DNA of 64,000 nt from an uncultured bacterium (GTDB lineage Bacteria > Omnitrophota > Omnitrophia > Omnitrophales > Aquincolibacteriaceae). The first letter of the stretch is position 1. Each line of letters begins with the position of its first letter. The position numbers and the translations under genes are program-made. This document shows, one piece after another, positions 5,690-48,290 of this stretch. The stretch is taken from positions 111,615-175,614 of the forward strand of contig CAZSFZ010000003.1 in NCBI GenBank assembly GCA_964606385.1, read 5' to 3'. A model generated the notes under the pieces. The model did no database searches. It worked only from the letters and a program-made list of their open reading frames with translations, and was not told where the DNA came from.

Positions 5690-6235
5690 TTACAACCCCA
5701 GATCGCGAAGCGTAAAGATAGGCGCGTAATTGTAATTGGCGAGAGTTTCAGAAGCCCCTTCGTTGCGATCCACCAGGCAAATCGTTTTGATCACCTTCGC
5801 TCCGAGAGCTTCGACTTCTTTGATCGCTTTCAAGACGGATCCCCCGGTCGTGATCACATCCTCGAGCATCACCACTTTGTCACCGGGTTGAAGGGCCGGA
5901 CCTTCGATCATTTTCTGCATGCCGTGATCTTTGGCCTCTTTGCGGACAATGAATGCTTTGAGAGGCTTGCCGCTTTGGGAACTCAGGACGGAAACTGCCG
6001 CCGCAAGCGGGTCCGCGCCCAGCGTGGGCCCTCCGACCGCATCGGCGCCAGCTGCCTGGGCCATATGAAGGATCACTTTAGCCGCGTAGAACAGCCCTTG
6101 GGCGTCCAGCGTGACCTGCTTCCCGTCGATGTAGTATTGCGAGATCTTTCCGGAGGCCAGTTTGCGCTCCCCGCGCACCACCGCCTTCTCCTGGATCGAT
6201 TTCAATAATTCCTGCTTAAGTGTCTGTTCATCCAT
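5690..6235 (-). CDS. pyrE: orotate phosphoribosyltransferase
   Basis: 181 aa. PRPP-binding motif VVMLEDVITTGGSV. AAGGAG RBS. Confidence 0.9.
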   Translation of the reverse strand: MDEQTLKQELLKSIQEKAVVRGERKLASGKISQYYIDGKQVTLDAQGLFYAAKVILHMAQAAGADAVGGPTLGADPLAAAVSVLSSQSGKPLKAFIVRKEAKDHGMQKMIEGPALQPGDKVVMLEDVITTGGSVLKAIKEVEALGAKVIKTICLVDRNEGASETLANYNYAPIFTLRDLGL

Positions 6236-13780: not shown

Positions 13781-16700
13781 CTATGCCGCTCGAGCAAAGA
13801 CGATGCTGTTCTGAAATTCCTGGAGAGCCACGCGCAGCATCGCGCTCGCCATGGAAAGGTCCATGACGCCCTTTTCGGAGGGTTTCTCGTGCTGGTCCGC
13901 GTAAAGAAGCGCCATCGGTACCAACCCCGTTTCTTCCGCGATATAACGGAAATCAAAGATCTTTTTGTTTAAAGCAGAACGCGGGACGCTGCGTTTTGAA
14001 ATGCGGATGATCTTTTCATCTTTCCCGACCGGCATATCTTCCGGAGCAACCTCCGTGATCACAATGCGCCCGGCGCCTAGTTGGCGCTGAAGCCGGGTCA
14101 AACGATCCACCGCGCCCTTCGCAGAAAAAGGCTGGCTTTGATTTCCATAAAAAACGAATTTTACGTTCGGCTGCAGGATCGCCATGGTTTCGAATTCCTG
14201 TAGCTGGGCGTCCGTAAAATACGCTACATCCGCCAGGTCCGTCATGACCGTGAATTTTCCGCGCAGGTTTTCGATCGCTGTCCGCACGGACCGTTTTTCA
14301 TTAAGACCCGAAGATTGAACCGGTTCATATTCTTTGGGGCCGGTTCCGCTCGAGCGAACTTCAGACCGATCAGATTTGTCTTTCGGTGTTTTTCCTGTAA
14401 GTTCCAGCTCACGCGCTTCAGATTTCCGGACGGCTTCGATCGCGGCCTTCGCGTAGGCCTCCGTGAACGCGTCATAAAAACTCGTCCTTTGTCCGCCGAC
14501 GACCACCTGAAGGTTCCGCCCTTCCTCTGAGAAGATCTTGCTGTCGTCAAAGAGGGACCCCTGTTTTTCGGGGTGGGCATTCGCATTGAGCAACAGAAGA
14601 GCGCCATCGCTCTCAATCGCGTTCCTGACAGCGGTCTCATCGGCGTCTGCCCCGGCGCGGATCCGGATCGGAGCGGCCCCTTCACGGCGCGCCTGATCAG
14701 CCCACAACTCTTGCGCGTTCGAAAATTCTTTCCGGCTGTGATCCACCATCACGAGAGGAGCCTTCAAGTCCTTCGCGATCCTGGCGGCCTCTTTCGCCCC
14801 CCACATATCGACCGAAGGGTCCCAAGCTTCTTCCTCATAATTCTCATATTCCCTGTTTTCTCCCGGAAAACTGGATGCTGTTTTCTGCTTGATCAGGATG
14901 AAGCGGGTTTTACCCGGCTGCCATTGAGCGGCCTGCGTGTTCCACCGAGAGGGATCCCCGGACAGCTCCAGCACCCCGAGCTCCGTCTTGACGGCCTCGC
15001 TGAAGTAAGGGAAAAACTGCCCCAGGCTCATGTTCTGCCAAATGACAAGCGGCCTGTCTTTTTTCCCGGACTCATCCATCCAGCGCCGCGCCTCGAGGAT
15101 CTTTTTCAGAGCATAGGCCGCCGAAGGAGTTTCCTTTTCGATCACGTTCCAGACGGAGTAAGAAAGGCCGTCTTGCTGGACCGTGTATCGGGTCAAAAAG
15201 TCAGCCGAACTTTGATAGGCATCGGAATTTCCATCCACCCTCACTTCAGAGCGGCCGCCGACGGCAAACCGCACGATGCGAACCAAAGTTCCGTGTTCGC
15301 TTAAAACACATGGGATCGGCTGCGGCTCAAAAACATGCGGCAAGAAACGATACGCTTCCGAGGAACCCGAAGGGAGAACCGTATGAATTTCAGCAAAACT
15401 ATGCGGCTCCGACCGGACCGCTGAAAGAATATAAGGAAGTCCTTTGCCTCGGTGGGTGCTTCCGGTCATTGAATTTCCGGGCTCCACGGCCCAAAGAACG
15501 GAGGGGATCCCTTCCCCATTATCCAAAGAAAGGATCTCGATCCCTTTGCGCCCCCGGTCTTCGATCGAGCGGGCGACGATCACGCTTTGGGCCTGATTTC
15601 CCGCATGAACACGATTGATCTGGAACTCGTTAAGCACCTGCCCCATCAACTCTTCATCGGTCGAAACCTTCTCCTCACCAAGCATCCGGAAATAGACCGG
15701 CGCCGGTGTCGTCGAAAAACCTGTCTCTTCCAACAGATCGCTCAAACGCGTCCCGCGGTTAAGCTCTGAAAAACCGCTCACCCAATAACCCTTTTCTAGA
15801 AGCTCCTTCGCTGCTTCCTTGGAACCCTTCATCCACCGGCCCGCTAACTCCAGGTCTTCATGCCGCATCTCCGCCCGGTTCCGAGAATCGGGAGGGGTCT
15901 GCTGGGCGGCATAAACACCGTTGAGAGCCTCAAGAACATTGCTTTGATCGGTTTTGTCCCAGATATTGCGTGAGACAAAAAATTCCGCCAGGGGTTCCGG
16001 AAGCCCGTGATCGAGAAGACCTTTCAAGCTCGACACGACAGGACGCGTTGTGTAGGAATAAATTTTAAGATACTGAGTGATCATCTCCCGATTCGTTGCC
16101 GCATTGAACCTGGCGTCTAATAAGGCCTTTAATTCTTGCGCGGTTTTCATGAAATCGATGTCACGCGCTTCCGAACGACCCTTAGATTCAAGCCGCGGCT
16201 CAGCTGCCGGCCATTTTCTTTCTTGTCCGTTCTTCATATTACGAAGCTCAATGAATCCGGGCTCGCGCTTGATCGACTCGGGGTCCAGACCCGCTTCACG
16301 CAAAGCCGCGTCCCATCCACCGCGATCTTTATAGACCTGAAGGGCCTTGTTGTAGACCGACGATGGAGTCCGCGGCGTTCCCAACACCCCGAAAACGACC
16401 CGGGCGCCCGCTTCACTGATTTCCAGTTGGACCGTTCCTCCCCGCAGACTGAATCCTGCTTCATGAAGCGCTTTAAGGACCTGCGGGATCTTTGCTTTTT
16501 CTCCCTCCGTCCATGCCGGGATCTTTTTGGACCACCATTTAAACTGGCGCTGGGCCGCTTCAAGATCGGTCTTCGCTGCTTCATCGTTTGAGGATCCGGC
16601 CTCGCGCATTTCCGACCGTTCCGCCGTAAACCGGACGATCACCGCCGATCCTTTGAACTTGGCAATATCCTGGGCTCGCTTCCCGTCATAGGGCCGGGGA

Positions 16701-19700
16701 ATCACTTTCCTTGCGGCCGTTTCTCCTTTTCGGATCTCCGCCACCTGCCCATGAGAAATGATCGTGACATCGCCTTCCTTGATGACGCGACCCATCGCGA
16801 TCCCGTCGCCACCCCCCTCAGATTTCTGCGCCAGGAAACCGCCATGGACCAAGGCTATATCCAATTCACCCTTCGTGTTGATAGGAAATCCTTCGCCGCG
16901 ATCGATAGCGGCCACGTATCCGGTACCGGTGGCATCATCATAATCCACCACAAGAGCACCCTGCTGATGGGCATACCAATCTACATTTTCTCCGAGGTAG
17001 TTAGCCGCCATTCTCGCATTTCGAATGAATGAATAATTTTTTCCATAGCCCCTCTTGCGAAGATTCTCCGTCGCCTTCCCCATCCACTGATATCCCTCTT
17101 CAGTTCCGTCGATCAGCCCGGCCCATGCGACCACCGCTTTTTCAAACTCCGTACTATCGCCGATGAATACAAATCCTTCTTTCCCGGTTTGAACACTCTT
17201 CACATCGAGCGGAACAGGTTTGTTTCGAAGGTTGAGTTGATCCACTTTCTCCCAAACATCCGTTACCTTGGCCATAACCTCTTCCGGCACGATATCTTTG
17301 TTCCGAGCCTCGGAACGCTTTTTCGTGAGGAGGATGGCCTCGAGACCGGTGCCGCGGGAATTGCGAGTGCCCGCAAGGTCTTTGCCATTCGCCCACAGGA
17401 ACACATCTTTTGCCCCTCTGGCAATGAACTGCTGAATTACCTCCGGCAGATATGCGCCGATGAATTTGGAATCGCCCGCAAGGGTGTTCCCGACCAATAG
17501 TTGTTTCTTTCCGCGCGGATCTTCTGCCAGACCGATAAAGCTGTGGGGGTAATATGCAGCGATCAAACGAATCTCGATTTCGCGACCGTTGATGATCCGA
17601 AACTCCCCTTCGTCGAGTTTTTCTTTCTCTTTGTCTCTTCGCGCATCAAAATCTTTGTATTCCCATTCCAGATATTTCTGACGGATCGCCTCAACCGTTA
17701 ACCCTTTTTTCAATAACGGTTCGAGCGAAAGAACGATCGGCTGTCCCATGAGCGCCAACTTGATAAGTTCGGGGTCTCGATAAAGCTCCCCCAGATCATC
17801 GCTGAACCCAAGTTCGATATTCTGTTCGACTCCGTCCCGTACCATACGGAAAAACGGTAGCCGGAAAATATGGCGAAGATCATCGAATTGTTCATGAAGA
17901 TTCTTGAGATTGTCTTTACCGTTTTTTACGATCCGCTGCCCATAGACCGCATAGCGAATGCCCGTCACGGGATCTCCCCGTTCATCAAAAATACCGCGGG
18001 TGCCATCCGGCTTCATGAGCTGGAGACTCATGACGGAGAGCGAACCATCCTCCCCTGTGACCAGCATGTCATAGACGCGGCCCGCTTTCGGGTCGCGTGC
18101 CGAAGAATATACTTTTCCATCCGCCACGCCGACAAACCAGTCATTGATCCCGAGATTTCCGTTCGGAAGCACAAGCTCGACTTTCTCATCGGAATGTGTG
18201 ACTTCATAGGTTTCAATGAATTGAGAAACAGTCTTCTTGAACGCCTCGACCCGGGGATCATGAGACCCGTAGGGTTTTCCCTCGCGGTCCACATAAAGCG
18301 GCCCATGGACCCTGTCCCGGAAAAGCCGGCTCACGCCGTCAGCTTTGAACCATTGTTTTGTCGGATCTGTTTCGTCCGCGCCGCTCACGCTCAAGACAAC
18401 CTTGATCTTGTCGGGATCAAAGGCCTCTATTTGGGGCTCTACTTTCTGGAACTTCGATGTCCGTATCTCGGACCTCTTCGCTTCATCTTTCTCATTTTTC
18501 CGGATGCGAACATCCCAGCCATATCGATGCGCGGGAGCATCGCTCAAAATACCGCCTCCTCGCAATTTCAGGATGGCCTGAGTAAGTTCTTTATAATGTG
18601 GAATGCTTAATTGCGGGAGCCCTCCCGGGAAACTACTCCCCCGGTCTGTAAACGCGAGTTCGCGCGGCGTGCCGGGGACATGATAGTAGGCATGATCATC
18701 GGTAATAAAATAGCCGCCTTGCGGAAGCGCATCCTGGAGTTCTAAAATAAATCCTGGGTTCTGCGCGTAATCCAGGGGGACTTCCTCACCGGCGCGTTGA
18801 TAGTAACCGTTGAAGCCGGATCCCAAAAGTTCCCGGTAAGCATAAGACCGTGTGATATCGGCATCCACGAACAAAACCGTCCGAGACGATAAGGTTTTCC
18901 CTAGAGGATGTTGCCATTCGAAATCGAGACCAAGTGACTGTTCGTAAGAAGTGATCTGAAAATTTTTAACTCCCAAAGCGTCCAATTCCACGGTCATTGC
19001 GATAAGCCGCTCCAACGGACCCCTTAACCATTCTCCGACAGAATAACCAAAGACTTCTTTATTATAACGATATCGATCCGCTAATTCCGATGCCAACCAG
19101 CGTGCCCGGGTCCCCGGATCCAGGATCTGTCTGGGGTCCATCGGAATTGCTCCGGTCAACGCGTCTTTGAACCACCCGAAGTAATCGGAAATGAACAGCC
19201 CGCGCGTCATATTCGTGCTCAAAAGCGCGTTCGAAAGATCCACGCCGGCTGCGCCATAGATCAATCCGTAATCCTTAAGCGAAGGATTCACCACGCTCAA
19301 AATCATCCAGTCATGGAGAATATAAGCCGGATCCAAAAGATGGCTCACTTCGGATCCCGCCGCCTTTGCTTTCAACCCTTCCCAATTGGCAAATCTTTCC
19401 GCATCTCTCACTTCTGAGCGGTTGGTATTTGCGGCTTGTTCCAATACATCACGAACGTCTTGATTGGCAGGATCGTGAAGAAGCGGGGCGAGGAGATCGC
19501 TGGAAAGCTGGTCGTGGCCGAGGCTCATCAGTTCATCATAAGCGTATTCATGAATGGACCAGACTTCACCAAGACCGTTCTTGGCTTTCTGCTGCGCCTC
19601 AAGCCACTGTTTGAAACCGGCTTCCCCCAACTCGGCAAGCTTCGTCTCTAAAAGTTTTCCCGTAGCCCGGATCTTTTGGATCTCTTCGATGCTGGCAAAA

Positions 19701-22700
19701 TAAACATAATGAGAACGGCGCTCGCGGTTCTTTCCGTCCCACTCTGGCGAGGCGAAAGCGCCTTCGGTGCGAATCGTCTGCAATTTACTGTCATCAATTT
19801 TCCAGTCCTCCGGCAGTCCCAGCTCTTCGACAATCTCGTGTTTAACCGTATCCCTGTAACCTTGCCTTGTCTGAACATGGCCACCAAAAAGGGAGAGCCG
19901 CATTGGCTCGGCGATATTATGTGCCCGACGTTGGAGAAGGAACTTGCCTTCGGGGGTCATAATAAATGTGGTCGGAACCCGGTGCATCAATCCGTACCGG
20001 TGCGCGATGTTCCGGTCAATCGCCCCGATCACCGTTTCTATACCATTCTCTGACTTGATAATATCCACATCTTCGCCCTTGAGCTTCAGGCTTCCGTTCT
20101 CAATCGCCGTCAAAATATCTTGTATCTTTGCGCTATCCAGCCCGGCGGAAGGATCTTCTTTAATTTTTTCAAGTTGTTGCCGCAGTTTCGGTTGAACCCC
20201 CTTTGTTTCCGGTCGGATTGGTTCCGAAACAGTCTTTGACCGGGCGATTTCGAAAATGGTGTAAATGTGATCCTCGTCAGCTTGATGATAGAACGCGATA
20301 CTTGAAACACCGCGAGCGTTGAAATCGAGCGGCGCGAGCGAGGCTTGAAACACCTTTTCACAATCCGGATCCTGGATTTTGGTAAGATCGGTCCGACGGC
20401 GCATATAGCGTGACATGGTTCCCTGGTAGAGAAAAACAAGCGCCTTGCCATTCGGGTCAAGATGCGCGGGGAGCTCCCTCAAGAACCTGAGCGTAAGCTG
20501 TTTTGCGGCCGCGGCCCCATGCTGAAGTGGCAAGCTCGCGAGAATAAGATCGAATTTTTCATCAACCCCGACGGCTTCACCCGTGAAGGGGTCCCCATAG
20601 GCAACGCGGACTTTGTCCTGAAGACCGAGACGGCGCACATTCCATTTCGCGAGTTCAAGCGACAAATCATCGGTATCAGTCGCCGTCACCTGTCCTGAGC
20701 CTTTTTGAACCGCAAGCGCCGCAAAGATCCCCGAGCCCGTTCCGACATCGAGCGTTTTGAATCCAGTCTTGAGTTCCATCCCTCCCAAAAGCGCGGCGAA
20801 CTTATCGCTTACCCGATTTTTCGACATCAAACGCCCGCGGACGTTCATAAAACCGTCTTCTGTATAAAAAATGGGCGCACCATTCATAAAAACCGGCTTG
20901 CCGGGGAAGAGCTCGCCGGCCTTTTGCATCTGCGCTGCGGCTTGCGCCTCATCCGGATACGCCCAAGGGTCCCATGCGTCATTCGGGTTCTTTTGATTTC
21001 GTCTGACCTCCGCTTCGCTCATGACCGGCACGATTAAAACAAAAGACGGACTTTCAATAGCCAAGCTTTGCCCGTCACTGTTTTCAATGAGGCTCGCTCG
21101 GATCTTCGAAGACTCTCCTATCAGAACTCTTTCGAAAAACTGATTTTCGGTCTCCTCTGCGTTTTTTTGAGCCAGAAAAATCTCCGCGCCTATCCTTCGA
21201 GATGGCATCATCACTTCCGATTCCGAACTGTGCCGGTTAAGGTCCAGCAGCCATTTTTCAAAACTTCTCATTTTTAGGGGCTCTATGCGCCCTTCAATGA
21301 TGTCAAATCCTCCCCTCACGCCAGCCACAGAACGGTCAAAATTCAAACCAATATGGCCGAACAGGAACACATAATCCGGATTCTGCAACTTAACATCTGT
21401 CCTTATCTCAGAACGGATATTTTTTACGGCAAAGATCATGTCCATATCCTGGGAAAGATCGAATCTGCCGACATAGGATTTTCTTTCGTGCCTTGGAACA
21501 GAGAACGACTTTGCGGCCTCAAGCGCGTCGGTCACAGCTTTTGCTTTTTCATCCGCTTTCATGCCCTTCCAGACGGCGGTCGCTTCGGGTGAATAATAGT
21601 CCGGGTTATAAGCGACAAAAAGGGTCCCGCCTTCTTTTAAGGTCTCAGCGGCAGCGCGGAACAAAGAAGGAAGATCCTCGGCATACGCGGCGCCCGAGGT
21701 CATGACCACGGCATCGAAACGGCCTTTCCATTCCTCCGGGAATGCCGGCTTTTCATTCACATCTTGAACGCGATAGCTGGTTAATTTTTTGTTAAGCGCC
21801 ATTTCCTTATCATTCAAGCCGACCCCGATTACCTCGGACGCTTGCGATGCGGCAGGCACATAGGAGAATTTCCCGCTCATCAGATCGAGCACCTTCGCGC
21901 CTTCGGGAAGGAGTGTCGCCAGTTTCTGTTCGATCATTTGTCCGGGCGCCCATTCAAGATAAGGCGTTTCGTTCACGACATCTCTAAAATCACTTTGAGA
22001 TCCTTCCCGCATTTCAGAGCGAGGGCGAGGGCCAGAGCCAGATAGAAGTTCGGAGATATCGTCCGGAAACAGATTTTTCACTTTAGTGCCAGAAGCGTGC
22101 TGTGCCGAACGCCATTCGAGAAGATTGAAAGTAAGCTCGGACGATCTGGCGAGAAGCGCTTCGCGCGAAAAACTATGGGTGCCTTCCGCCGGCATGGCCG
22201 AAACGTGGGCGATCACCTGATGATGAAGGTCCCGCAATTGCTTGAACGACATCCCCGGATATCTCCGGTACTCGTCCCGCACAAGCTCAAAAAGCTGGCT
22301 CGGGACCGCAATGAACGCTCCCCCGGCCGGGAAAAAGTTCGCCCAAAAGAGCGTGTTGACCCGGAGCTTATAGATCCACGTGAAAGGCGCGATCAGGAAC
22401 ACAAGCCTGAGGAATGGGCTCATGAAGAACCATATGGAAACAGGAACAAAAGCGAACAGCGGATGCGTCGCGACCAGCGCAGTGCTCAGCGTGCTCAGGA
22501 CCGTCTTCGAGATCGCGAAGAGAGGGACCGAAAGTGACATGAGCTCCCAAAGCCGGATATAGGCTTTTTTCTGTTCCGGCGAAAACCCTGTTCGATGGAC
22601 CAAATAATTCAAAAGCCGAAGGTCCGGACTCTCGAGCATCTTTCGACGTTGTGCATCCCGCCATTTTGAAACAAAATCGGTACGAACTTCTGAGCGGTTT

Positions 22701-25700
22701 TTGGGGGTCATATCCTGCCCCGGAATGATGTCTAATCTTATGGTCTTGGTCATTTCATGCTCAAGCGGGGGTTGGTTGCTGAATTCCGTTGGATTTCCCG
22801 CCACCCCCGAAAGAATGCGCATAACATCTCGTTTGAGCTTGGTCGGGGCCTGCCGGATCTTCTCGGAGCTGATGACCTGGAGAAGCCGGAAGAATTTCGG
22901 GTTCATTTTCCCTGCGGGAAGATAGGAAACGGCAACCTCAAGGACGGGCAGCCAAATCGAAATCCGGTCTTCCTGGAGAAGCTTCTCAAGCGCCTCAAGG
23001 GCGTAATTCGTGCGGTCAACCGCTTGCCCGACCACGTTCGCGAACAGGACTTCCTGGATCACTTCTTTTCTGAGCTTCTCCAGTTCTCCGAATTCAGCGC
23101 TTTCCTGATAAAGGCGGCATGTTTCATCGACAGCGTGCTTGTAGTGATGGATGGGGTCGTCCTTCACAGGCTTTTTATCATCCGCTTTCAACAGATCCCC
23201 CAGAGAAGCAAGGATTAGTTTTAATAATTCCGAATACCGGACCATATCCTGGTCGCGGCCTTCATAAGCGACGGTTGCCGGATAAATTTCTGCCGAAAGG
23301 ACGGTCCCGTTCGTGGAGCGGTAGTCCTCGATGGTGATCCACAGGTTCCCCTCATCATCCCGAAAGACCCGGAATGAGAAATGCCTGCCTGAGGTCACAA
23401 ACTCGGAGTCGACCGTGAACAGCTCCGCAGCCTGGATCTTGTCTTCCGGAACGTGGTCCCGGGCGACCATGTAGGTTTTATTGAAATCCACTTCATACGT
23501 GTCCGCGTCTCCGCGGGAATAGATCCTGAAAGCGATCCTTCCGTCCGCAAGCGGTTCGATCTCGAATTGAACCGGACTTGTTTCGACGTGTTCCCCCACG
23601 CCGAGAATGACCCTTCCGAAGAACATTGCCGTGAAATCTTCTCCTCTTAATTGGCGGTCCTGAAGGATCATGGTCGGTTCGGAAGCGGGCGAATGCAGAT
23701 AATTCAGAACTGTTTTTTTGAGCTCCGGAGAAAGCATATCCAGAAAGTCTTTCCGCAGTTCCGGATTCATGTGTTCGACCAAAAGAAAAGCGAGGTTTTT
23801 CTGATCCTGGCTTTGCAACATGACAGAAATTGCAACAAAGTTATAAGTTTTTCCTTCCCACGCAATCGTCTGCATTTTGGGGGCGTTTTTAAGCGCCAGC
23901 GGGGTGAACCTGGCCGGTATGCCCGCACTTCTCACTTCTGAACGCTTTTCGTGGTGATCAACACGGGTCTCCGTTTGAGGATGAACGCCGAGCTTTTGGG
24001 CTTGTTCGTAGGTCCAAGCCGCGAGGCGTTTGTAATCCGTCACGCGGAACGGCCGGTCAAGATCGCCGGTCAACTGGATCATGCCCGCGTCCGCAGTCCC
24101 CTGCGTCATGGCATAAACAGTCTGGAGGTAAACATTTCTCAAATAGTGAAGATGCCCGACGCCTTGTTCAAGATAAGGCGTATTGAGAAGAACTTTCAGG
24201 ACGTAGGCCTGCGTTCCGTCCTCGGACGGCGTGCCTTTTTCCGCATCCCATCGCTGCCCGACACCCTCCATATAGCCGACTACGATGCCGTTCCGTCTCC
24301 GGTCTTCGTTCCCGTCTCCCAGTCCCTCGAACATCTTTTTAACGAATGCTTCATGGCTTCCGGCGCTCCGAATATCCGCCATCATCGCTTCGTCTTCGGC
24401 CTGATAGGCAAGTTTTTCATCTTCGATCTGGGACGCGTAGGTCCGGAACACTGCGCGGAGGATCTCGGGATCTTTCAGGATCTCGTTGGGATCCACGGTC
24501 CCTTTCGCGGGGCGCAGGGCATTCAGCCTCTTCATAAAATCTTCAAAGCCCTGATTCGTCGCATAACGAAGATGAGCATTCCGGAGGTGGGTCCCTTCGT
24601 GGATCACGACATATTTCACGATCATCTGCGGCATCTCCAACGCAAAATCTTTATTGACCTGGATCCCGCTCAGCTCTCCGGCCTTGTTGGCCTGCTGGCG
24701 AATAAAGGGATGTATTGAAAGCGGATCGATCCGGGTTTCATCGATCTTGGCATGCTCTCGGAACTCTTTGATGAGGTCTTGAATGGATTCCCGCGCGGCA
24801 GGGTCCATAACGGTCGCGGCGATCCTGTTGAAACGGCGGGCGATCCGGTCCGTATCCGATGAGGTCATTTGAAAAACAAAGAACGCCGCGATCGCGATCG
24901 TTACCGCCAAGGAAACTGCCAGGCTCGCCTTTAAGACGAAGCCCTTGCGGCTTGTCGCCGGCGGCGCGCGCGATTGAAGGCCTGAGATCTCGAATAAGGT
25001 CTTGAGCTTCGCGATAGAAACATCCGGTCCAAGCACCTCACGAACATCCTCATAAGAATGGATCCGGCCTTTCCGTAACGCCGCAACCAACTCATTGGCC
25101 TTTGCTTTTCTCTTGGCTTTATCAGAAACCACGCTTTTGAGCACTTCGAGCAGTTCGGTGAATTTCGTTTCAGCGGCCAGCAGGGTCCTTATTTCCGAGC
25201 GGCCGTTTATCGAAACATCCGTGTCGGGAACGTTTGGTTTTTTTGCGGCAAGCGCCGCGGGAGGCAGCGTAAAAAGAACGTTCAAGTCCAGGTTCGCTTT
25301 GACCCAGCGCAAAACCTCTTCAAGGTGGAAGGCGTCGATCTCATTTTCATGGACATTCGGAAAATCGATCGCCGTGCCCACCGTGGTCGAGGCCAGCTCC
25401 AAAGCCCCGGAGCGGTAGACACCCTCCGAAAAAGCCTTCTTGATCAGTTCCGCGCCGAGCGTGATCGCCCGCCCGTGCTGGTAAAAAACCTCTTCCGCGG
25501 CGTTATTCTTTTCTTTTTCGATGGGAAGCTGGGTCCGGAGCGAACGAAAAAGCTGAAAAAGGTCGGGTGACTTTTGGAGCGAGCTTTGCAGATGTTTCGC
25601 CGTCGCTTCGGCTCTTTCTGTTTTGGCCGCGATCGTAACGGGCATGCCCGGAAAGAATCGGTCGTACTTTTTTGCAAAATAACAGACTGTAAGAAATTGC

Positions 25701-28700
25701 AAAAAACGGATGTCCGTCAGGATCAAGGTCGCCAGAACTTCCGTTGAAATATTCCGGAGCTTTGCCTGGGCCTGAAGCCATTCCCAAAATGTGCCGGAAG
25801 CTTGCGAAAAAAAGATCCTTGTTAAGGGTTCCGTGGCCTGAACAGGATTCCAGAAAATGTCGGGGAGGAACGGCTCCGGCGCGTTGAACCAGGGAGACGG
25901 ATCCTCACCCGTGATCCCGATCCCGCCGGACCAATGGATCATTTTCCGCGCGTCGCTCGCGAAATTCTTGTCCGAAGGATCCGTCATCGATTCCAGGAAA
26001 AGCCTGCGCCAGTAAAGCGCCTTTTCCCCCAAAACTTCGCGCAGGAGGCTTCTCGCTCCCGAAGACGTTCTTTCAAGGAGTTCCCGTGTCCGGACGATCG
26101 AGGCCTCGAGGGCTTTTTGCCGGGCCTCGGTCTTCCACGGCTCATCAGGAATGTCCGAAGCCCGCACTTCCGAACGGCTCGCAGGATCAAGAGGTTCTCC
26201 CCGCCGGCGCCGTTTTTCACTGTCCAGGTGCCAGGCGTGCGCAAAGGCCTTCACCGCTTTCATATCAAGCCGTCCTTCTTCCGCATGCCTGACAAATTCG
26301 CCCACCGCCTTGTGAGCCGTGATCCCGTTCCGGTAAACACGTTCTACTGTCATCGCATCGAATGAATCCGCAACGGCAATGATCCTTGCTTCCACCGAGA
26401 TTTCTTTTCCGATCAGCCCGCGCGGATACCCCCTGCCGTCCATGCGTTCGTGATGAGAGAGAACGGTCTCGCGGACTTTTTCTAGGCCGGGGATCGAGGA
26501 GAGGAGATCCGCGCCTTTTCGGGAGTGTGTCTTCATGATGATCCATTCCGGGTCTGAAAGAGGATTGGGATTTTTAAGGATCTCTTCGGGGATCTCGAGC
26601 TTCCCGATATCATGCAGGAGAGCCGCTTGGGCCAATGTCAGTGAATGAGGCAGCCTCAATTCTACGGCTGTCATGACCGCAAGACGCATGACCCTCTCCA
26701 TATGACTTAAAATCTCTTCGTCCTTTTCCCGGACTTTTTCCAGAAGCTCCCGGGCCTGGGGAGGCAAAGACTCCACAACCTCCTGAACCGTCCATTGTTT
26801 ATGGGAATCGTCCGTTTCATCGGTGGCTGGCGCCAGAATATCCCTAAGAAGGGTTATTTGATAATCGTCCCGGAAATGATACCCAAGCTTAACAGCCCCG
26901 GATCGTTCCCTCTTTTCCAGATACCGATCATAGAAATCCCTGGATGCCTCACTAAAGGCTTGCCAGAAAACTTCCCGGACCCCCGCCTGGAACATCTGAC
27001 TCAAAAAGACATCCATGAGCCATGTGCCGCGTCCGCGAAGACCGTCTTTCACGGTCAGGATCCTCACAAGTTCCACTTTCTCACGGTCATCGCTCAAACG
27101 GCCATAAATACCTCCCGCGATCCTTCCTTGCGCGTCGATAAAGATCCAGGCTGGGTACCGGGTCAGATTCCTTTCCCACTTATCGGAAGAACCGCTTCGC
27201 AAAACGCCGTCCTGCTGTTTGACATGAAATGCTTCTGCCTCTAATTCACCCAGAACAGCGGCGACCTCCCGGAGTTGTCGCGCATCCAACTCCAAGGCTT
27301 TAACATTGACAATTTTCCCCAAGAGCGGGTCCGAAACCACGACCGCCGCTTCAGGAATTTCCATCTGCAACTGAAAAACGGATTTCGTTGCCGCTACTGA
27401 GATAAGCCTGTCAAGGGTGGCTACCAGAGACTGATATTGGGTGAAAACTTCACGGTGCCCGCCGAGGCCGTATTTTCCGATCACGACCCGACGCAGATTA
27501 TCCTTTTGAAATTGCGCTTCCGCGGCTACTTGCTCGGGCTCTTCGGCGGCCATCGGGATAAGAGAATCCAGTTTTTTCTCAAGCACTCCGAGAAGCCCTT
27601 TCACGATCGCGATCTTCTGCGCTTCGGAAAGATCTTTTTTGTCTTCGTCGCCTTCTGTCCGGACCTCGGAGCGGATCCGGAGATGTTCCAAAAATCTGCC
27701 TGTTAAAAGATCTTGATCCAGGGGCTGAAGTTTTTTAACCCAAGCCCGCTTGAGCGTCAGGCCTCCCTCCCAAGGGATCTTCGTTGAAAGGTCCGTAAAG
27801 ACATAGCCGAAATCCGGCATGTTCTGATCATAGACAATGCGGGCCAAGTCGGGATCCAGGGCTTTCATGTAGAGCCGTTTTTTCATGCGCTCCGCCGCGG
27901 GGCTGCCCCCCATCCACTTGAAAAGCGAGGGGATCATCGGCCGCATCAAAAAGGTCGCGAAGATCTGAACCGCGCGGAAAAACCGGGTCAGGGCATCGCT
28001 CTTCCCATAATGCTGAAGCCTCGCGATGACTCCCGGAAAGGCCCGTTCCGGCCAGCGTTCGAGGATGGTTTCGCTCCCAGGGCTGACGATCTCGGTGACG
28101 CCCGGAAGGGTCCGGGCATACGCTTCCAGGACAAGGCGCATGACTTTCCGCCAATCCTTGTACCTCGTCCGCGTGGTCTCATCTTTTTTGAGGAACGGAT
28201 AGATATCGCTTTGGACTTCCGCCACGACAAGCTGGTGGCCGCGCACATAACAGCGGGCAAAAGCAAGCGATCCCGGCACATGAATGTCCGTGAATTGCCC
28301 TTCCAGAACTTCTGAGGTATGAATGTGTTCCTTTTCCTCATCCGCCGGAAAGAACCCGATCACCTTCGGGTCTTTGGCTGTACCGTACATCCGCCGCGTT
28401 GCTTCGAAAGGAACTTCGCGCGCCTCTCCGCTGAAAAGATCCATTTTGGCTTTTCCGATCTTGAAGCGTTCCTGACCTTGCGGGATATTGATCGTCGCGT
28501 AAAAATCAACATTTCTCGTTTCGGAACGGTTAAAAAGTTTTTCCTGGTTGGCTAAATAAACCACGAGAGGAAATTCTTTGGAATCACGATAACGAAAAGT
28601 GGTCACATCCCATGTCAGGGAACCGCTCAACCGGTCCTCGAAAGTTTTCTTACGATCTTTCTTGGAGGGGTTGGGGTCTCTGAAGATCTTTCCTTTCGCG

Positions 28701-31700
28701 GCGCCTACGTACCGGAGCTGTTCTCCTTCGATTCCTGCGATGACAAAATGCATCACCTCCTGATCGCTGGGGTACATGGGGGGGGTCCGGACCACGACCA
28801 CATCCCCTGTTTTCAGGCCATCCTGTGGTATTTTATCGTATACCTCAAACTCCCCGGGGTTTTGAACCGCATATTTCATCCATTCAAAAGAGCCCTTTTC
28901 GGTAAATTCAGTAACAGAAGATTGTTCTGAAAGCGTTTTGCCAGCCTCTCCGAGGCGGGTGAGACGGACGGCTCGTTGAGGAAATTTGAAGCGAATGGTG
29001 GTTTTGTGACCGTCAAGACCCGGAGAAAGCGCTTCCATGGTACCGTCGTGGGCTTGCGTAACGATTTGGGACATAAGAACACCTATGCCGCCCCGGCTTA
29101 AGATAAAACGTCCGGATCCTTCTCGCGCGGGGCTTTTGGATACGATCTTGAAATATTCCCCGTAGAGGTCCTCGGGAACGAGAGAGGCAATGCCGATGCC
29201 GTCATCGGAAACTTCAAGATAAACATGATCTGCGTCTTGCAAAACCTTAAGATGAACCAGCCCCTCCCGGTCACCGCGGCCGTAAGCTGCCAGTCCGTTC
29301 TTGAGCGCTTCCGCGAGAAGCTCATGAGGTTCCCAGCTTTTCAAATCATGGACAATCCTCCCCCAAGTCCATTCCGGATGCCTTCCAAGCACTTCTTGAG
29401 CTCCTAGGCCGATGATATGATCGATCGGTTCAGTTGCCCATTTCAACCCCACGCGGTCCATGAAGTCCGTTAACATTTCACCTATCAATCCTTCGAGGTC
29501 CGCCTGGGTGTCCTGGAGGGTGGGCGCCGGCCTCATCGAACGGCTTTCGAAAACAACCTCTCTTGTCTCAGATCGTTTTGAGTGATGTTTTTCGCGGCTG
29601 ACCGAAGCATCCTCATAAAAAACCTCTTCGACATCCGCGATCTGCCGATGATCCTTATCCAGAATCGCCCTGAAATCCCCCCCGTTCCCGTGCACGATCC
29701 GTTCGATCTTGGCATAGATCCAAGATGCGGTTTCTGCGGCGGGCCATGCGATGCCGCTGGTATAAAAATCGTTTTCCAAGAAAAATTTTCGAAAGATCTC
29801 CTCGCCACTCCTCCGTCGGACTTCGGAACGAATTTCCTTCGCGGCGCTCATGGGCAATTGGGGCAAAAAGGGTTCGAGTTCGGCCTTCGCCGACCGGATC
29901 ACTTCTTCCTGCTGCCCAGGACGGGTGTCGAAATACCGGCTAAGACCACTTTTATAAACTTTGAACGCTTCCGGGGAAGCCGAAGCTGTGCGCAGGCCAT
30001 GGAGCATTTCCTCTTCAGTAAGCTCTTTTTCAGATCCCGGGTCCTGAATGGCCGTTTTGAAGACCGCTTCCATGAACCCCATATTGCCCGGGAAGATATC
30101 CGGACGTACCTTTGAATACGGTTTGATGTAAATCGCCGCGGGCCGGTTTTTAAAAGGCGCCCGCATGAGCAAGAGATGGGGCGTATCCAGCAACTTCAGG
30201 AAATCCGTGATCAGAGCCGCGTACTTTGCGACACCGCTCGACGAGGGCCCCTTCACGACAAACCACGCTCCTTCATCCGTTGAAAGTTCCGCAACAAAGG
30301 GCCCTCCTTCCTGGGCCGGAATGAATATGTCCTCTTCCTTGACCAGCTGATCTTCGATCCATGTGCTGTCCGAAACAAAACCGTGGGCATGTTGGGGCTT
30401 ATCTCCCATTCCGACAGCCGTCCCTCCATGGAACGCAAGCGCGACATTTCCGACCCCGAATCGTTCAAGCGCCTTCATCATGATTAAAAGGGACCGGCGG
30501 TCGACTGTTTGGTTGTGAAGCTCTCGATGATTAATGGCAAGGACGAAGTGATACGGCAAAAACGGCATATAACTGCGCAGGATGTGGACGTGAAGCCCAT
30601 CAATATTAAAATCGAGAAGCTTCTGGTGGGGATACTTGGCGGCAATTTCCTTCCAAGGCATGCCGGCGGCAGAGCGATCGACCGGTTTTGTAACAAAACC
30701 CGGAGCATTTTTGTAGAACGCTATCCACGCAACAACTTTGCGGAGAAATCCCCGGGGGCCGGGGATGGCCTCCGTTCTGACATCTTTGAGGTAGGAGAAC
30801 CCCGCGCCCCCCGCCCCCGTATAGGCTTCGGTTGCTTCGTAGCGTTTTTCAAACTCACGGAATACCGCGCTTGTAAAATGTTTGTCTTTTTCCTCTTTAC
30901 CGGCCCCGGGCAATTCGGAATGCGCTTGAGCCTGGGAAGTCTCGTCGCGCTGCGCTTTTCGAAGGGACCTGATGATCGAGGCACGTTCATCGCCGGAGAG
31001 CTCCGGGATTTTTTTATAAACATCAATAATTCGATCGAAAAGGCTTTTCGAAACCGTCTCGGTCTCAAGAGCTTCTTTGATTTCACCCATGATCGCGTCA
31101 GGAACATAGGAAAAGCCCGCGAATTCTGGAAATCCGGGACGCTCGACCGGAAAGAGGGCTGAGGGAGTACGCGATCTCGGGAAGATATAGAAGGTCCCTC
31201 CGCTCAGAATCACATTGTGCGGGATATCGGCGCTTCGGAGAACCCCGATATATTTTAATGCTTCTGCGCCCGCGGTTTGAGGGTCTTTCCCCGAAAAAAC
31301 CACGGCTCGGGCGCGATAATCGGTCAATTGCTCCACACGCACATCCAAGGGGGTCACCGCTATTTCTGTCCTGGCGGTTTGGTCCAGCCGCGAAGCTCCT
31401 CTCGAAACCGGCACAAGCATTACTGAAAAATAAAGTTGCCTGAATCGGGCGCCGGCAATCATGCTGTCAAATCCTATATAGACCCGGTACTGACCGCCTT
31501 CAGAAAGAGCGCGAACTATGGCCGCCATATATTCAAAAGCTTTTTGATTCATGACTTGAGGCAGGTTCGCGGACATATCAGCCACCACATAAAAATGATT
31601 AGGCCTGGACCCTCGTCCGGCTGTTAGAATGCGAACGCCGTTCGAAATCCCCTCGATCGAAACAGATTTCTCAAAAAGGTCGCTCCTGTCACCGTCAAGC

Positions 31701-40417: not shown

Positions 40418-40476
40418 AACGGCTTTTTTAAACTGCAATATGGTTCCCCCCTTGTAAGACGCCTGAGCAATAAAAA

Positions 40477-40563
40477 CGGAGAGGGAGGGATTCGAACCCC
40501 CGAGACGCTTGCGCGCCTAACGGTTTTCAAGACCGCCGCATTCAACCGCTCTGCCACCTCTCC
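40477..40563 (-). tRNA. tRNA-Ser (anticodon UGA)
   Basis: Minus strand reads GGAGAGGTGGCAGAGCGGTTGAATGCGGCGGTCTTGAAAACCGTTAGGCGCGCAAGCGTCTCGGGGGTTCGAATCCCTCCCTCTCCG. 7-bp acceptor, 3-bp D-stem, anticodon loop CTTGAAA, long variable arm, GGTTCGAATCC T-arm. CCA is not encoded. Confidence 0.85.
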
Positions 40564-40644
40564 ATCAAAAATCTATTGGTAGGGTGTGCTGTCCTGGCCA
40601 CCTTTATTTTAAAAACAAGGCCAGGGCTGCCACCTCTCCATTAA

Positions 40645-41438: not shown

Positions 41439-41441
41439 AAT

Positions 41442-41515
41442 CGCGCCCGGCAGGAGTTGAACCTGCAACCCCCACATCCGTAGTGTGGTGCTCTATCCAA
41501 TTGAGCTACGGGCGC
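41442..41515 (-). tRNA. tRNA-Arg (anticodon ACG)
   Basis: Minus strand reads GCGCCCGTAGCTCAATTGGATAGAGCACCACACTACGGATGTGGGGGTTGCAGGTTCAACTCCTGCCGGGCGCG. Anticodon loop CTACGGA. CCA is not encoded. Confidence 0.85.
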
Positions 41516-41755
41516 AAACCACATTAATTTTTTATTCTATAATGCTTGTTCGCGACCAGTCCTTTAGGACAGGCGCAAACTGTTTTAACTTATTATATTC
41601 ATTACACTTAAAGATCTTAGAGGGTATCGGTGTTTGACCGTTCGCCCCTCACCGAGGATCGGCCCGAAAACATGCAAGCAAGGCAAACCATTCCTAAAGA
41701 GGGCGTTATTATACGCATTTTAGGGGGAAATGCAAAAATTGTTCCATGGAATCAT

Positions 41756-45574: not shown

Positions 45575-45585
45575 GTGCCCCACAA

Positions 45586-47738: not shown

Positions 47739-47747
47739 ATCGGCCTC

Positions 47748-48185: not shown

Positions 48186-48212
48186 GGTATAACCTCCTTC
48201 GTTAACACCCTC

Positions 48213-48222
48213 CCCCCCCCCG
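48213..48222. repeat. poly(C) on the plus strand, i.e. a G10 homopolymer tract on the coding (minus) strand
   Basis: ccctCCCCCCCCCCgg between the radical-SAM paralog at 48291 and the membrane-protein gene at 48185. Confidence 0.8.
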
Positions 48223-48290
48223 GAGGTAAGAACCTTCGGTTGCTCCTTGGGAAAAGGCGCTGCTCTTTTAAACGTTTAAACGAGTGCGGC

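What the first reader, a model, noticed from the sequence alone, without database searches (positions are those of the whole stretch)
19700..29300. Module inventory of the giant protein reads like a fused operon of signalling and nucleotide-metabolism enzymes
In N-to-C order the frame shows the following.
- Histidine-kinase-like GHKL ATPase motifs EVSDDGIGI and GGIGV, nt about 29190-29215.
- GNAT-like motif RGRGTWLM.
- A complete HD-GYP c-di-GMP phosphodiesterase signature HDIGK...HHERMDGRGYP, nt about 26420-26465.
- An HExxH metallopeptidase-like motif.
- An FHA-like phosphopeptide-binding motif YRSTNGTVL, nt about 23285-23365.
- A multi-TM block.
- Two class-I SAM methyltransferases, VLDLMSGK, and a HemK/PrmC-like LDVGTGSGIFAALA...TATD at nt 20705-20765.
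- A canonical Nudix box GGHVQTRQGYRDTVKHEIVEELGL, nt 19817-19888.
These are normally separate cytoplasmic proteins. Here they sit behind a signal peptide in one secreted or membrane polypeptide. That suggests delivery of an enzyme cocktail, for example to the envelope, to vesicles or into another cell.
Basis: partly seen in the sequence, partly recalled or inferred. Interest (0 to 1): 0.7.

Follow-up and report, generated by a model that had tools for sequence, protein, structure and literature searches.

The report
Motif-punctuated giant polyprotein of Omnitrophota
The 6,816-residue protein is real and belongs to a large Omnitrophota-only family in which unrelated enzyme cassettes are strung between a conserved protease-like head and a conserved tail, each cassette preceded by the same five-residue tag (R-S/A-E-x-R); this tag looks like the long-sought cutting site of these giant bacterial proteins.

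Summary
The giant ORF (nt 13781-34231, minus strand) is real. Profile searches support five of the listed modules: HATPase_c, a complete HD-GYP, two class-I methyltransferases and Nudix. GNAT is borderline. HExxH, FHA and "HemK-like" are not supported, and the Nudix box is not canonical. Multi-enzyme giant proteins of Omnitrophota are already published, so the inventory itself is not new.

The pentapeptide R-[S/A]-E-x-R occurs 20 times in this ORF (0.4 expected). It splits the ORF into 21 blocks and is essentially exclusive to one family. That family has three parts:
- a signal-peptide-like N-terminus followed by a conserved roughly 430-aa N-cap. The N-cap has a TIKI/erythromycin-esterase-like fold and invariant D-x-H, E and H residues.
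- motif-delimited cassettes. These are the units of homology and are shuffled between relatives.
- a conserved C-cap ending in [A/S]A-COOH.

All blocks are 7-10-fold depleted in cysteine.

The best reading is an exported, MARTX-like polyprotein cut at R-S-E-x-R, with the N-cap as candidate protease. Cleavage is inferred, not shown. The papers I searched say cleavage points in these giants are unknown, so the motif makes that question testable.

The parts
13781..34231 (-). Giant ORF, 6,816 aa, ATG start; a member of the N-cap / R-S-E-x-R / C-cap family
34148..34231 (-). N-terminal signal-peptide- or signal-anchor-like segment (aa 1-28). It has a positive n-region (R3, K8, R9) and a hydrophobic core at aa 10-28 with '...AIA-MP' at its end.
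   Evidence: helix 6-25; same pattern in 164 relatives
32828..34102 (-). N-cap core (aa 44-468): conserved alpha/beta domain with a large helical insert. D71-x-H73, E101, E139, R145, R393 and G418-G-F-H421 are invariant. The fold is TIKI/erythromycin-esterase/TraB/ChaN-like.
32606..32827 (-). Predicted disordered linker (aa 469-542) between the N-cap and the first motif
   Evidence: pLDDT below 50
32591..32605 (-). Motif 1, RAEMR (aa 543). The other 19 R-[S/A]-E-x-R sites are at nt 31985-31999, 29816-29830, 29561-29575, 28514-28528, 27659-27673, 26162-26176, 25187-25201, 23930-23944, 22682-22696, 22007-22021, 21401-21415, 19406-19420, 18461-18475, 17303-17317, 16604-16618, 16163-16177, 15863-15877, 15239-15253 and 14354-14368.
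   Evidence: 20 sites observed, 0.42 expected, maximum 3 in 500 shuffles; 20 of 22 six-frame hits in the window are in this frame
28973..29326 (-). HATPase_c (GHKL ATPase) module in block B04; no HisKA/DHp domain was found
26924..27166 (-). GNAT-like segment in block B06 (borderline)
   Evidence: 20.6 bits against a cut-off of 20.7
26258..26728 (-). HD-GYP c-di-GMP phosphodiesterase domain in block B06, with a complete signature
24872..24928 (-). Single TM helix (aa 3102-3120) in block B08. It is followed by the only HExxH of the protein, HEGTH at nt 24587-24601.
   Evidence: the YgjP-like hit reaches only E=0.022
23222..23512 (-). FHA-like stretch in block B09 (unconfirmed)
22262..22549 (-). 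Multi-TM block in B10 (aa about 3895-3990)
21557..21928 (-). Class-I SAM methyltransferase 1 (block B11), with a degenerate motif I
20432..20818 (-). Class-I SAM methyltransferase 2 (block B12; MTS/PrmA-like, no NPPY)
19610..19969 (-). Nudix domain (block B12), YfcD/IDI-like, with a non-canonical Nudix box
13784..14368 (-). C-cap (aa 6622-6816). It starts at the last motif and is a Rossmann-like alpha/beta domain ending in ...VFARAA-COOH.

Best explanation
The ORF encodes a modular polyprotein of an Omnitrophota-specific family.

**Shown.**
- Every family member starts with a signal-peptide-like segment and a conserved N-cap domain.
- Each then carries a variable string of cassettes: enzymes, regulators, membrane segments and many unknowns.
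- Each cassette is preceded by the pentapeptide R-[S/A]-E-x-R, which sits in a linker-like stretch.
- Each member ends with a conserved C-cap whose carboxy-terminus is [A/S]A.
- Cassettes are the units that are gained, lost and reordered between relatives.

**Inferred.**
- The pentapeptide is a site-specific proteolytic processing signal. The giant precursor is cut into about 20 separate proteins, as in MARTX toxins or viral polyproteins.
- The N-cap is the most likely built-in protease. Its fold and its invariant D-x-H...E...H residues resemble TIKI-family hydrolases such as the site-specific endopeptidase RRSP.
- The precursor, or most of it, is exported in an unfolded state before or during processing. 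This rests on the signal-peptide-like N-terminus and the strong cysteine depletion of all blocks.
- The released HD-GYP, GHKL, methyltransferase, Nudix and other modules therefore act outside the producer's cytoplasm, possibly in a prey or host cell.
For: **Motif statistics.**
- There are 20 sites in the ORF against 0.42 expected.
- 20 of the 22 six-frame hits in the whole 64-kb window are in this frame.
- 120 homologues carry 426 sites against 11 after shuffling.
- In 80 independent genome loci the density is 2.0 per 1000 aa inside N-cap ORFs. Only 3 stray hits fall in unrelated ORFs.
- 71 of 73 motif-rich ORFs whose start is visible begin with an N-cap. The two exceptions are fragments of one gene split by an assembly gap.

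**Selection acts on the protein.** The flanks are not conserved, position 4 is restricted to L/V/M/A/I, and Glu, position 4 and the last Arg vary synonymously.

**Cassette behaviour.**
- Blocks B01, B03, B07 and B11 match P0123 segments bounded by P0123's own motifs.
- B05 and B06 match P0124, with three unrelated blocks inserted between them.
- In the all-vs-all comparison, 26% of HSP starts lie within 5 aa of a motif against 2.2% for random positions. 174 of 1,660 HSPs start exactly on the first Arg.

**Linker context.**
- In the N-cap model the 74 residues upstream of motif 1 have pLDDT below 50.
- In the C-cap model residues 7-22, just after the last motif, have pLDDT below 50.
- Motif flanks are depleted in order-promoting residues, p about 1e-37.

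**N-cap.**
- The AF2 model has pLDDT 77, with the core above 90.
- Foldseek ranks BcR135 and EreC at the top.
- Q-D-x-H, E-E-G and G-G-F-H are kept in 96-100% of 259 members. The His-to-Glu spacing is 28 residues, as in RRSP H3902/E3930 and Bcr135 H85/E113 (PMC6254334).

**Export.**
- Charge and hydrophobicity at the N-terminus are signal-peptide-like in 164 members.
- Cysteine is 0.10% here and 0.15% family-wide, against 1.04% in other large ORFs of the same genomes.

**Effector-like evolution.** Paralogues occur several per genome and in tandem, each with different cargo.
Against: - No direct evidence of cleavage exists, and trypsin-based proteomics cannot see cuts after Arg.
- About 7% of long members keep an intact N-cap but have few or no motifs. 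The N-cap therefore has some role independent of the motif.
- If the N-cap is periplasmic, it can only process cargo that is also exported. Exporting ATP-, SAM- and acetyl-CoA-dependent enzymes makes sense only if they reach another cell.
- Internal TM segments in B08 and B10 would act as stop-transfer signals.
- No secretion system, partner protease or pilZ gene lies next to the gene; the neighbours are housekeeping and polysaccharide-type genes.
- Arg1 and Ser2 of the motif show an unexplained codon bias.
Confidence: 0.45

Rival explanations
1. The giant protein is never cut. It works as one membrane-anchored or surface 'string of enzymes'. In this reading R-S-E-x-R is a short linear docking or hinge motif, for example one that binds a scaffold, a chaperone or the N-cap itself, and not a cleavage site.
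For: - Published analyses read these giants as intact membrane-anchored or extracellular proteins.
- The motif's properties, short and exposed with unconserved flanks, fit a docking motif as well as a cleavage site.
- Motif-like strings occur inside the last helix of some C-caps.
- Members without motifs still keep the N-cap.
Against: - A docking motif does not explain why the motif marks exactly the boundaries of shuffled homology units.
- It does not explain why unrelated cytoplasm-type enzymes, TM blocks and regulators would need to remain covalently linked.
- The N-cap keeps hydrolase-type invariant residues and not just a binding surface.
Confidence: 0.25
2. The ORF is a protein-level operon for the cell's own use. 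The precursor is cut at R-S-E-x-R by a cytoplasmic, separately encoded protease during or after translation. Only the N-cap and the TM-bearing blocks leave the cytoplasm. The enzymes serve the producer's own signalling and nucleotide metabolism.
For: - The cargo families are ordinary cytoplasmic types needing ATP, SAM or acetyl-CoA: HD-GYP, GHKL, MTases, Nudix and GNAT here. Relatives carry sigma-70 regions, radical SAM, Dus/pseudouridine synthase and guanylate kinase.
- The gene sits among housekeeping genes.
- The predicted periplasmic location of the N-cap argues against it cutting cytoplasmic cargo.
Against: - Cysteine depletion across all blocks is unexpected for cytoplasmic enzymes.
- Cassette content turns over rapidly between close relatives and paralogues, unlike housekeeping functions.
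- No candidate trans-acting protease was identified.
Confidence: 0.15
3. The recurring 15-nt stretch is a nucleic-acid signal, such as a recombination site for cassette exchange or an mRNA processing or pausing site. The pentapeptide would then be a by-product.
For: - The first Arg is CGY in 79% of sites against 39% background. Ser is TCN in 95% against 69%.
- Cassettes are shuffled exactly at these sites.
Against: - Glu, position 4 and the last Arg use background-like or highly varied codons. The 15-mers in the window differ at many synonymous positions.
- Substitutions preserve amino-acid class: S/A/P at position 2 and L/V/M/A/I at position 4.
- All sites are in the coding frame.
- Rfam finds no RNA family in the ORF.
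- No start codon or Met enrichment follows the motif.
Confidence: 0.04

Closest known systems
Giant multi-enzyme ORFs of Omnitrophota: giant ORFs over 20 kb (Seymour et al. 2023, PMC10066038); 'Archaeovorins' (West-Roberts et al. 2023, bioRxiv 10.1101/2023.11.21.568195); class 1 'multi-enzyme metabolic clusters' and Pfam Module 1 (2026 preprint 10.64898/2026.06.07.730766)
   Same: - Same phylum.
- A 20.45-kb ORF.
- Signal peptide plus TM topology.
- The same Pfam mix tiling the polypeptide: methyltransferase, HATPase_c, GNAT, HD and NUDIX.
- Those authors already suspected post-translational cleavage.
   Different: - This protein (6.8 kaa) is below their size thresholds (over 30 kaa and at least 10 kaa).
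- Its neighbourhood lacks the reported T2SS/T4P and pilZ loci.
- In the three of these papers I could search, I found no description of the conserved N-cap, the C-cap with [A/S]A-COOH, or the R-S-E-x-R punctuation. They state that cleavage points are unknown and propose C39 or S8 peptidase domains instead; the Kizina et al. 2022 paper on V. archaeovorus was not held.
MARTX (multifunctional autoprocessing RTX) toxins
   Same: - Multi-kaa precursor with conserved N- and C-terminal regions.
- A central array of unrelated enzymatic effector cassettes that are shuffled between strains.
- A built-in protease that releases the cassettes at inter-domain linkers.
- One MARTX effector, RRSP, has the same TIKI-type fold suggested here for the N-cap.
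   Different: - No RTX or glycine-rich repeats and no CPD cysteine protease domain (Pfam scans).
- No adjacent T1SS.
- MARTX cleavage follows Leu without a strict pentapeptide.
- Here the candidate protease is N-terminal and TIKI-like, and the N-terminus looks Sec-dependent.
Viral polyproteins with a dedicated protease and a conserved cleavage motif (picorna-, poty- and flavivirus type)
   Same: - One ORF encodes many mature proteins separated by a short conserved recognition sequence in exposed linkers.
- One protease domain per polyprotein.
   Different: - The gene is cellular and chromosomal, and multi-copy within a bacterial phylum.
- Its cassettes are ordinary bacterial enzyme families.
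- Processing has not been demonstrated.
TIKI / TraB / PrgY / GumN / ChaN / erythromycin-esterase superfamily (for the N-cap only)
   Same: - Alpha/beta core with conserved His and acidic residues at strand ends: D-x-H, then E 28 residues later, then a second G-x-x-H.
- The top structural neighbours are EreC, BcR135, a TraB-family protein, ChaN, RRSP and HopBA1.
- Many members of the superfamily are extracytoplasmic.
   Different: - No sequence-level match to any Pfam or NCBIfam model.
- Asp replaces the first Glu of the 2His/2Glu set.
- A helical insert of about 220 aa splits the core.
- The structural scores are in the grey zone.

Membership tests
Omnitrophota giant multi-enzyme ORFs (Seymour 2023; West-Roberts 2023; 2026 preprint) | Encoded in an Omnitrophota genome | tested here: met
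   Nearly all named homologues and genome loci are Candidatus Omnitrophota/Omnitrophica MAGs.
Omnitrophota giant multi-enzyme ORFs (Seymour 2023; West-Roberts 2023; 2026 preprint) | Size threshold: over 20 kb (Seymour); over 90 kb (West-Roberts); at least 10 kaa (2026 preprint) | tested here: inconclusive
   The ORF is 20,451 nt and 6,816 aa. It meets only the 20-kb criterion.
Omnitrophota giant multi-enzyme ORFs (Seymour 2023; West-Roberts 2023; 2026 preprint) | Many distinct enzyme Pfams tile one polypeptide that also has a signal peptide and/or TM helices | tested here: met
Omnitrophota giant multi-enzyme ORFs (Seymour 2023; West-Roberts 2023; 2026 preprint) | T2SS/T4P-like locus upstream and pilZ genes downstream | tested here: not met
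   The upstream side holds RlmN, CorA, a deaminase, TPR/GDSL, a radical-SAM array and GT/ABC genes. The downstream side holds YchF, a hexapeptide transferase, RNase H, an M17 peptidase and RsmB.
MARTX toxins | RTX/glycine-rich repeat regions and a CPD autoprocessing cysteine protease | tested here: not met
   No such Pfam hits anywhere in the protein. The protein works like a MARTX toxin but is not a member of that family.
TIKI/TraB/Ere superfamily (N-cap) | Characteristic alpha/beta fold with a parallel beta-sheet core | tested here: inconclusive
TIKI/TraB/Ere superfamily (N-cap) | 2His/2Glu catalytic set (RRSP E3900, H3902, E3930, H4030) | tested here: inconclusive
   D71-x-H73, E101 (28 residues after H73) and H421 are invariant. 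Asp replaces the first Glu. I could not inspect a structural superposition.
TIKI/TraB/Ere superfamily (N-cap) | Match to a family profile (TraB_PrgY_gumN, Erythro_esteras or Cofac_haem_bdg) | tested here: not met
   No Pfam or NCBIfam hit in the window protein or in 24 relatives.
HD-GYP c-di-GMP phosphodiesterase | HD domain with H...HD...H...HHExxDGxGYP...D | tested here: met
   HD_5 E=1.8e-37. HDIGK is at aa 2540 and HHERMDGRGYP at aa 2593.
Nudix hydrolase | Nudix box GX5EX7REUXEEXGU | tested here: inconclusive
   The Pfam NUDIX hit (E=5e-8) passes its cut-off. The box reads G-x5-Q-x7-H-E-I-V-E-E-L-G-L, so two consensus positions are substituted while the E-x-x-E-E core is kept. The weak best NCBIfam matches are YfcD and IDI.
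HemK/PrmC glutamine methyltransferase | NPPY motif IV and an equivalog-level score | tested here: not met
   The motif IV position reads SLPL. PrmC scores 37.5 bits against a cut-off of 199, and PrmA and MTS score equally well.
Sensor histidine kinase | HisKA/DHp phospho-acceptor domain upstream of HATPase_c | tested here: not met
   Only HATPase_c is detected in block B04.
FHA domain | Significant match to an FHA profile or fold | tested here: inconclusive
   FhaB at E=0.018 and Pml1 at E=1.7. No Pfam FHA hit at E up to 0.5. The profile search was negative. No structure prediction was possible because no alignment could be built.
Zincin metallopeptidase | HExxH within a recognisable peptidase domain | tested here: inconclusive
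   There is a single HEGTH. The YgjP-like hit has E=0.022 over 21 residues. No homologues were found.

The most novel reading that the evidence does not exclude
Omnitrophota carry a chromosomal, multi-copy polyprotein system. Sec-targeted precursors of 1 to over 7.6 kaa are cut at R-[S/A]-E-x-R by their own N-terminal TIKI-like endopeptidase. This releases interchangeable enzyme and regulator cassettes (HD-GYP, GHKL, methyltransferases, Nudix, sigma factors and others) that act as effectors on or in prey or host cells. That would be a cellular counterpart of viral polyproteins and a new autoprocessing effector-delivery architecture. The same motif might then allow the far larger 'Archaeovorin' giants to be dissected.
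Probability: 0.3. Interest if true: 0.9.

Novelty: new variant of a known kind. Interest (0 to 1): 0.72.

Why it matters
Giant ORFs are a hallmark of Omnitrophota and of other host-dependent bacteria. Two papers I read name the unsolved question outright. West-Roberts et al. 2023 say that missing information on cleavage points stopped them splitting the proteins. The PLoS Comput Biol 2024 survey lists unknown protease motifs as the obstacle. The question is whether these giants act as one chain or are cut, and where.

A family-exclusive pentapeptide gives a concrete, mutable cleavage-site hypothesis. It marks every cassette boundary and always travels with one conserved hydrolase-like N-terminal domain, which supplies a candidate enzyme. 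It also gives three practical things:
- a rule for splitting these proteins into units for structure prediction and annotation;
- a sequence definition of the family (N-cap, motif, C-cap ending in [A/S]A);
- a way to catalogue what may be an effector repertoire of an uncultured predatory or parasitic phylum.

Tried and rejected
**Searches that failed or found little.**
- The word-indexed search found nothing for B08-B09 and only 2 hits for the C-cap. Both gaps reflect tool sensitivity, since local BLAST found 10 or more C-caps.
- Pfam, NCBIfam and PDB sequence or profile searches found nothing for the N-cap or the C-cap.
- The AFDB50 fold library was unavailable.
- Model coordinates were not exposed, so I could not measure how closely the catalytic residues cluster.
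- Kizina et al. 2022 is not held in the library.
- A literature search for the motif strings returned only irrelevant hits.

**Ideas tested and dropped.**
- A second class of C-termini with a short tail after the last motif. These are motif-like strings inside the C-cap's last helix.
- Motif-poor members having lost the N-cap active-site residues. They have not.
- A DNA- or RNA-level origin of the motif. I kept this only as a low-probability rival.
- An FHA profile built from B09 plus P0148. It did not recover FHA structures.

**Caveat on a control.** The Cys comparison with window neighbours (2.05%) is inflated by a radical-SAM gene array. I use the family-wide control of 1.04% instead.

Full report
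**1. The object.** Window nt 13781-34231 on the minus strand is one uninterrupted ORF of 6,816 codons with an ATG start. The same gene, with the same length, is called on an independent Logan assembly contig seen in two samples, so it is not an assembly artefact of this window. Homologues and related genome loci come almost exclusively from Candidatus Omnitrophota MAGs. The finding's region, nt 19700-29300, corresponds to about aa 1645-4844.

Profile searches clearly support five modules:
- HATPase_c (E=4e-9), with the DxGxG and GxGxG boxes intact.
- A complete HD-GYP domain (HD_5 E=1.8e-37), carrying HDIGK and HHERMDGRGYP.
- Two class-I SAM methyltransferases (E=1.2e-6 and 1.7e-11).
- A NUDIX domain (E=5e-8).

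Other claims are weaker or wrong:
- GNAT sits exactly at the Pfam threshold (20.6 against 20.7 bits).
- The Nudix box is not canonical. It reads G-x5-Q-x7-H-E-I-V-E-E-L-G-L.
- The second methyltransferase is not HemK/PrmC-like. It has SLPL in place of NPPY, and PrmA, MTS and PrmC models score alike.
- No HisKA domain accompanies the GHKL module.
- HExxH occurs once, with about 0.2 expected by chance, and gives only a 21-residue YgjP-like match at E=0.022.
- FHA has two sub-threshold hints on the same stretch: FhaB at E=0.018 and the Pml1 FHA domain at E=1.7. There is no Pfam hit, and a small profile did not recover FHA structures.

Hydropathy confirms a single TM helix at aa 3102-3120 and a multi-TM block at about aa 3895-3990. 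Only about 6 of the 21 blocks have any family assignment.

The pentapeptide R-[S/A]-E-x-R, with x mostly V, I, M or A, occurs 20 times in the ORF. Shuffling gives 0.42 on average and never more than 3. The sites divide the ORF into 21 blocks of 85-723 aa.
- In a six-frame scan of the whole 64-kb window, 20 of 22 occurrences are in this one frame.
- The 120 proteins found with the N-terminal region carry 426 sites against 11 after shuffling.
- In 80 loci from independent genomes, the density is 2.0 per 1000 aa inside family ORFs. Almost all 'background' hits turned out to be further family members, often arranged head-to-tail. Only three single hits lie in unrelated ORFs.
- The motif has no conserved flanks. 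Position 4 is restricted to L/V/M/A/I, position 2 to S or A, and one member uses P eight times.
- Glu, position 4 and the last Arg vary synonymously, so selection acts on the peptide.
- The flanks are linker-like. In the two AlphaFold models, the residues next to the motif have pLDDT below 50.

**4. Cassettes are the evolutionary units.** Against the closest relatives, homology comes in pieces that begin and end at motifs in both proteins.
- B01, B03, B07 and B11 match P0123 segments 814-1059, 1216-1323, 1319-1651 and 5713-5933. P0123's own motifs lie at 814, 1216, 1320, 1635, 5713 and 5926.
- B05 and B06 match P0124 segments 1283-1574 and 2475-2973, with three unrelated blocks between them.

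In an all-vs-all comparison of 208 family proteins, 26% of the 1,660 HSPs outside the N-cap start within 5 aa of a motif, against 2.2% for random positions. 174 of them start exactly on the first Arg. HSP ends are only weakly tied to the motif. The repeating unit therefore looks like [motif - folded part - variable tail]. A cassette can hold more than one domain: B06 has GNAT-like plus HD-GYP, and B12 has a methyltransferase plus Nudix.

**5. Conserved caps.**

N-cap:
- The first roughly 470 aa are conserved at 32-65% identity in every member and always lie at the N-terminus.
- An exhaustive search of 1.84 billion representative proteins found 5,629 proteins at E up to 1e-3 and 297 at E up to 1e-30. 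Lengths reach 7,652 aa.
- No Pfam, NCBIfam or PDB sequence match exists.
- The AlphaFold model (pLDDT 77, core above 90) is an alpha/beta domain split by a helical insert of about 220 aa.
- Foldseek finds nothing significant but ranks BcR135 and EreC first.
- Invariant residues D71-x-H73, E101 and G-G-F-H421 sit at strand ends. They are kept in 96-100% of 259 members, with a His-to-Glu spacing of 28 residues. The spacing is the same in RRSP (H3902/E3930) and Bcr135 (H85/E113). RRSP is a metal-independent, sequence-specific TIKI-family endopeptidase (PMC6254334).
- I treat the TIKI-like assignment as probable, not proven.

C-cap:
- The last block, aa 6622-6816, starts at the final motif and recurs at the extreme C-terminus of relatives of 900-6,720 aa.
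- 29 of 33 family ORFs with a visible end finish in [A/S]A-COOH, against 0 of 139 control ORFs.
- Its model (pLDDT 81) is a generic Rossmann/HAD/GT-B-like fold and not a known secretion-signal domain.

Linkage between the parts:
- 71 of 73 motif-rich ORFs with a visible start begin with an N-cap. The two exceptions are gap-split fragments of one gene.
- About 7% of long members have the N-cap but few or no motifs.

**6. Clues to location.**
- The N-terminus is signal-peptide- or signal-anchor-like in 164 members: a median +3 charge, then about 21 uncharged residues, then a neutral or acidic flank. This predicts an extracytoplasmic N-cap.
- Every block is cysteine-poor. The protein has 7 Cys in 6,816 aa (0.10%), and the family averages 0.15%, against 1.04% in other large ORFs of the same genomes.
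- From general knowledge, such depletion is typical of proteins that cross membranes unfolded or work outside the cell.
- No secretion system, pilZ gene or dedicated protease lies nearby. Upstream are RlmN, CorA, a deaminase, TPR/GDSL, a radical-SAM array and GT/ABC genes, and downstream are YchF, an M17 peptidase and RsmB. This differs from the T2SS/T4P context reported for larger giants.

**7. Mechanism.**

Shown: the tripartite architecture, the exclusivity of the motif, and the cassette behaviour.

Inferred: R-S-E-x-R is a proteolytic processing site that converts the precursor into about 20 proteins. The N-cap is the best candidate protease, because there is one per precursor, it is always present, and it has a hydrolase-type invariant set. 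Processing would occur in an exported context, so the cassettes would work outside the producer's cytoplasm, possibly in prey.

Three rivals remain:
- An uncut enzyme string in which the motif is a docking or hinge element.
- An own-use 'protein-level operon' cut by a cytoplasmic protease acting in trans.
- A nucleic-acid signal, which is unlikely.

The main weaknesses are these:
- There is no direct cleavage evidence.
- The fold scores are in the grey zone.
- Some members lack the motif.
- Internal TM segments complicate export.
- The CGY/TCN codon bias at motif positions 1-2 is unexplained.

**8. Comparison with what is known.**
- Giant ORFs over 20 kb in Omnitrophota (Seymour 2023) are published.
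- So are 'Archaeovorins' carrying GT, MTase, GH, peptidase and NUDIX domains (West-Roberts 2023).
- So are 'multi-enzyme metabolic clusters' with a Pfam module of MTase, HATPase_c, GNAT, HAD and HD (2026 preprint).

The module inventory therefore belongs to a known phenomenon. None of these texts mentions a recurrent motif, a conserved N- or C-terminal domain, or defined cut sites. They state that cleavage points are unknown. Functionally the closest analogues are MARTX toxins and viral polyproteins. Membership in MARTX fails because there are no RTX repeats and no CPD.

**9. Verdict.** The finding as written is an ordinary instance of a published phenomenon, with several over-called motifs. 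The locus nevertheless reveals a family-defining punctuation motif and conserved caps, which make the cleavage question directly testable. Novelty: a new variant of a known kind. Interest: 0.72.

Noticed in passing
window 43257-55840 (minus strand): Eight consecutive genes carry Radical_SAM domains. One is fused to a B12-binding domain and SPASM, and one to a GT2. They are followed by ABC-2 permease, GT1 and ABC ATPase genes at 55846-63470. This is an unusual radical-SAM-rich, polysaccharide-type cluster about 9 kb upstream of the giant gene.
   Followed up: partly
the 20 motif sites in window 14354-32605; family ORFs in L002-L081: There is codon bias at the motif. The first Arg is CGC/CGT in 79% of sites against 39% background. 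Ser is TCN in 95% against 69%, with TCC at 50% against 21%. Glu and the last Arg look like background. In the window, 18 of 18 Ser codons are TCN. This is unexplained.
   Followed up: partly
whole giant ORF, window 13781-34231; family ORFs in L002-L081: Cysteine is extremely depleted: 7 Cys in 6,816 aa, and 0.15% family-wide against 1.04% in other large ORFs of the same genomes. One of the 7 is in the signal-like segment, one is in a disordered linker, and the other five were not mapped to structure.
   Followed up: yes
window 16787-16924 (B15) and 15422-15544 (B18): Two further GHKL-like G1/G2 box pairs (IDRGEGF...GGGDGI and LDNGEGI...GKGLPY) lie outside the finding's coordinates. They look like SpoIIAB/RsbW-type kinases but have only very weak profile support.
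   Followed up: partly
window 29831-31999 (block B02, aa 745-1467): This 723-aa block has no profile hit. By eye it contains two HIT/GalT-like stretches ('PNHFYVV...HNVILSGG' and 'PYHFVLAINH...KPQHAHGF'), which suggests a nucleotidyl-transferase or phosphorylase-type cassette. I did not test this.
   Followed up: no
L015, L023, L034, L068, L077 and other genome loci: Family genes often sit head-to-tail in tandem: an upstream ORF ends in ...[A/S]A, and the next N-cap ORF starts within a few hundred bases. There are several paralogues per genome, with 6 loci in MAG JAUYMS and 5 in Ca. Taenariivivens baikalensis.
   Followed up: partly
P0145 (4,929 aa relative): This relative uses the variant R-P-E-x-R eight times in place of R-S/A-E-x-R. 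About 7% of long members, such as the WD40-rich P0031/L040 and L059, have an intact N-cap but essentially no motif.
   Followed up: partly
aa about 470-545 of family members; window 32591-32827: Many relatives carry a doublet of motifs 30-50 aa apart directly after the N-cap, with a short conserved helix between them. In the window protein the first copy has decayed ('QRAVTMDY') and only RAEMR at aa 543 remains.
   Followed up: no
window 40476-40564 and 41441-41516: tRNA-Ser(TGA) and tRNA-Arg(ACG) genes lie upstream of the giant gene. tRNA-Arg(ACG) reads the CGY codons preferred at the first motif position. This is probably a coincidence.
   Followed up: no
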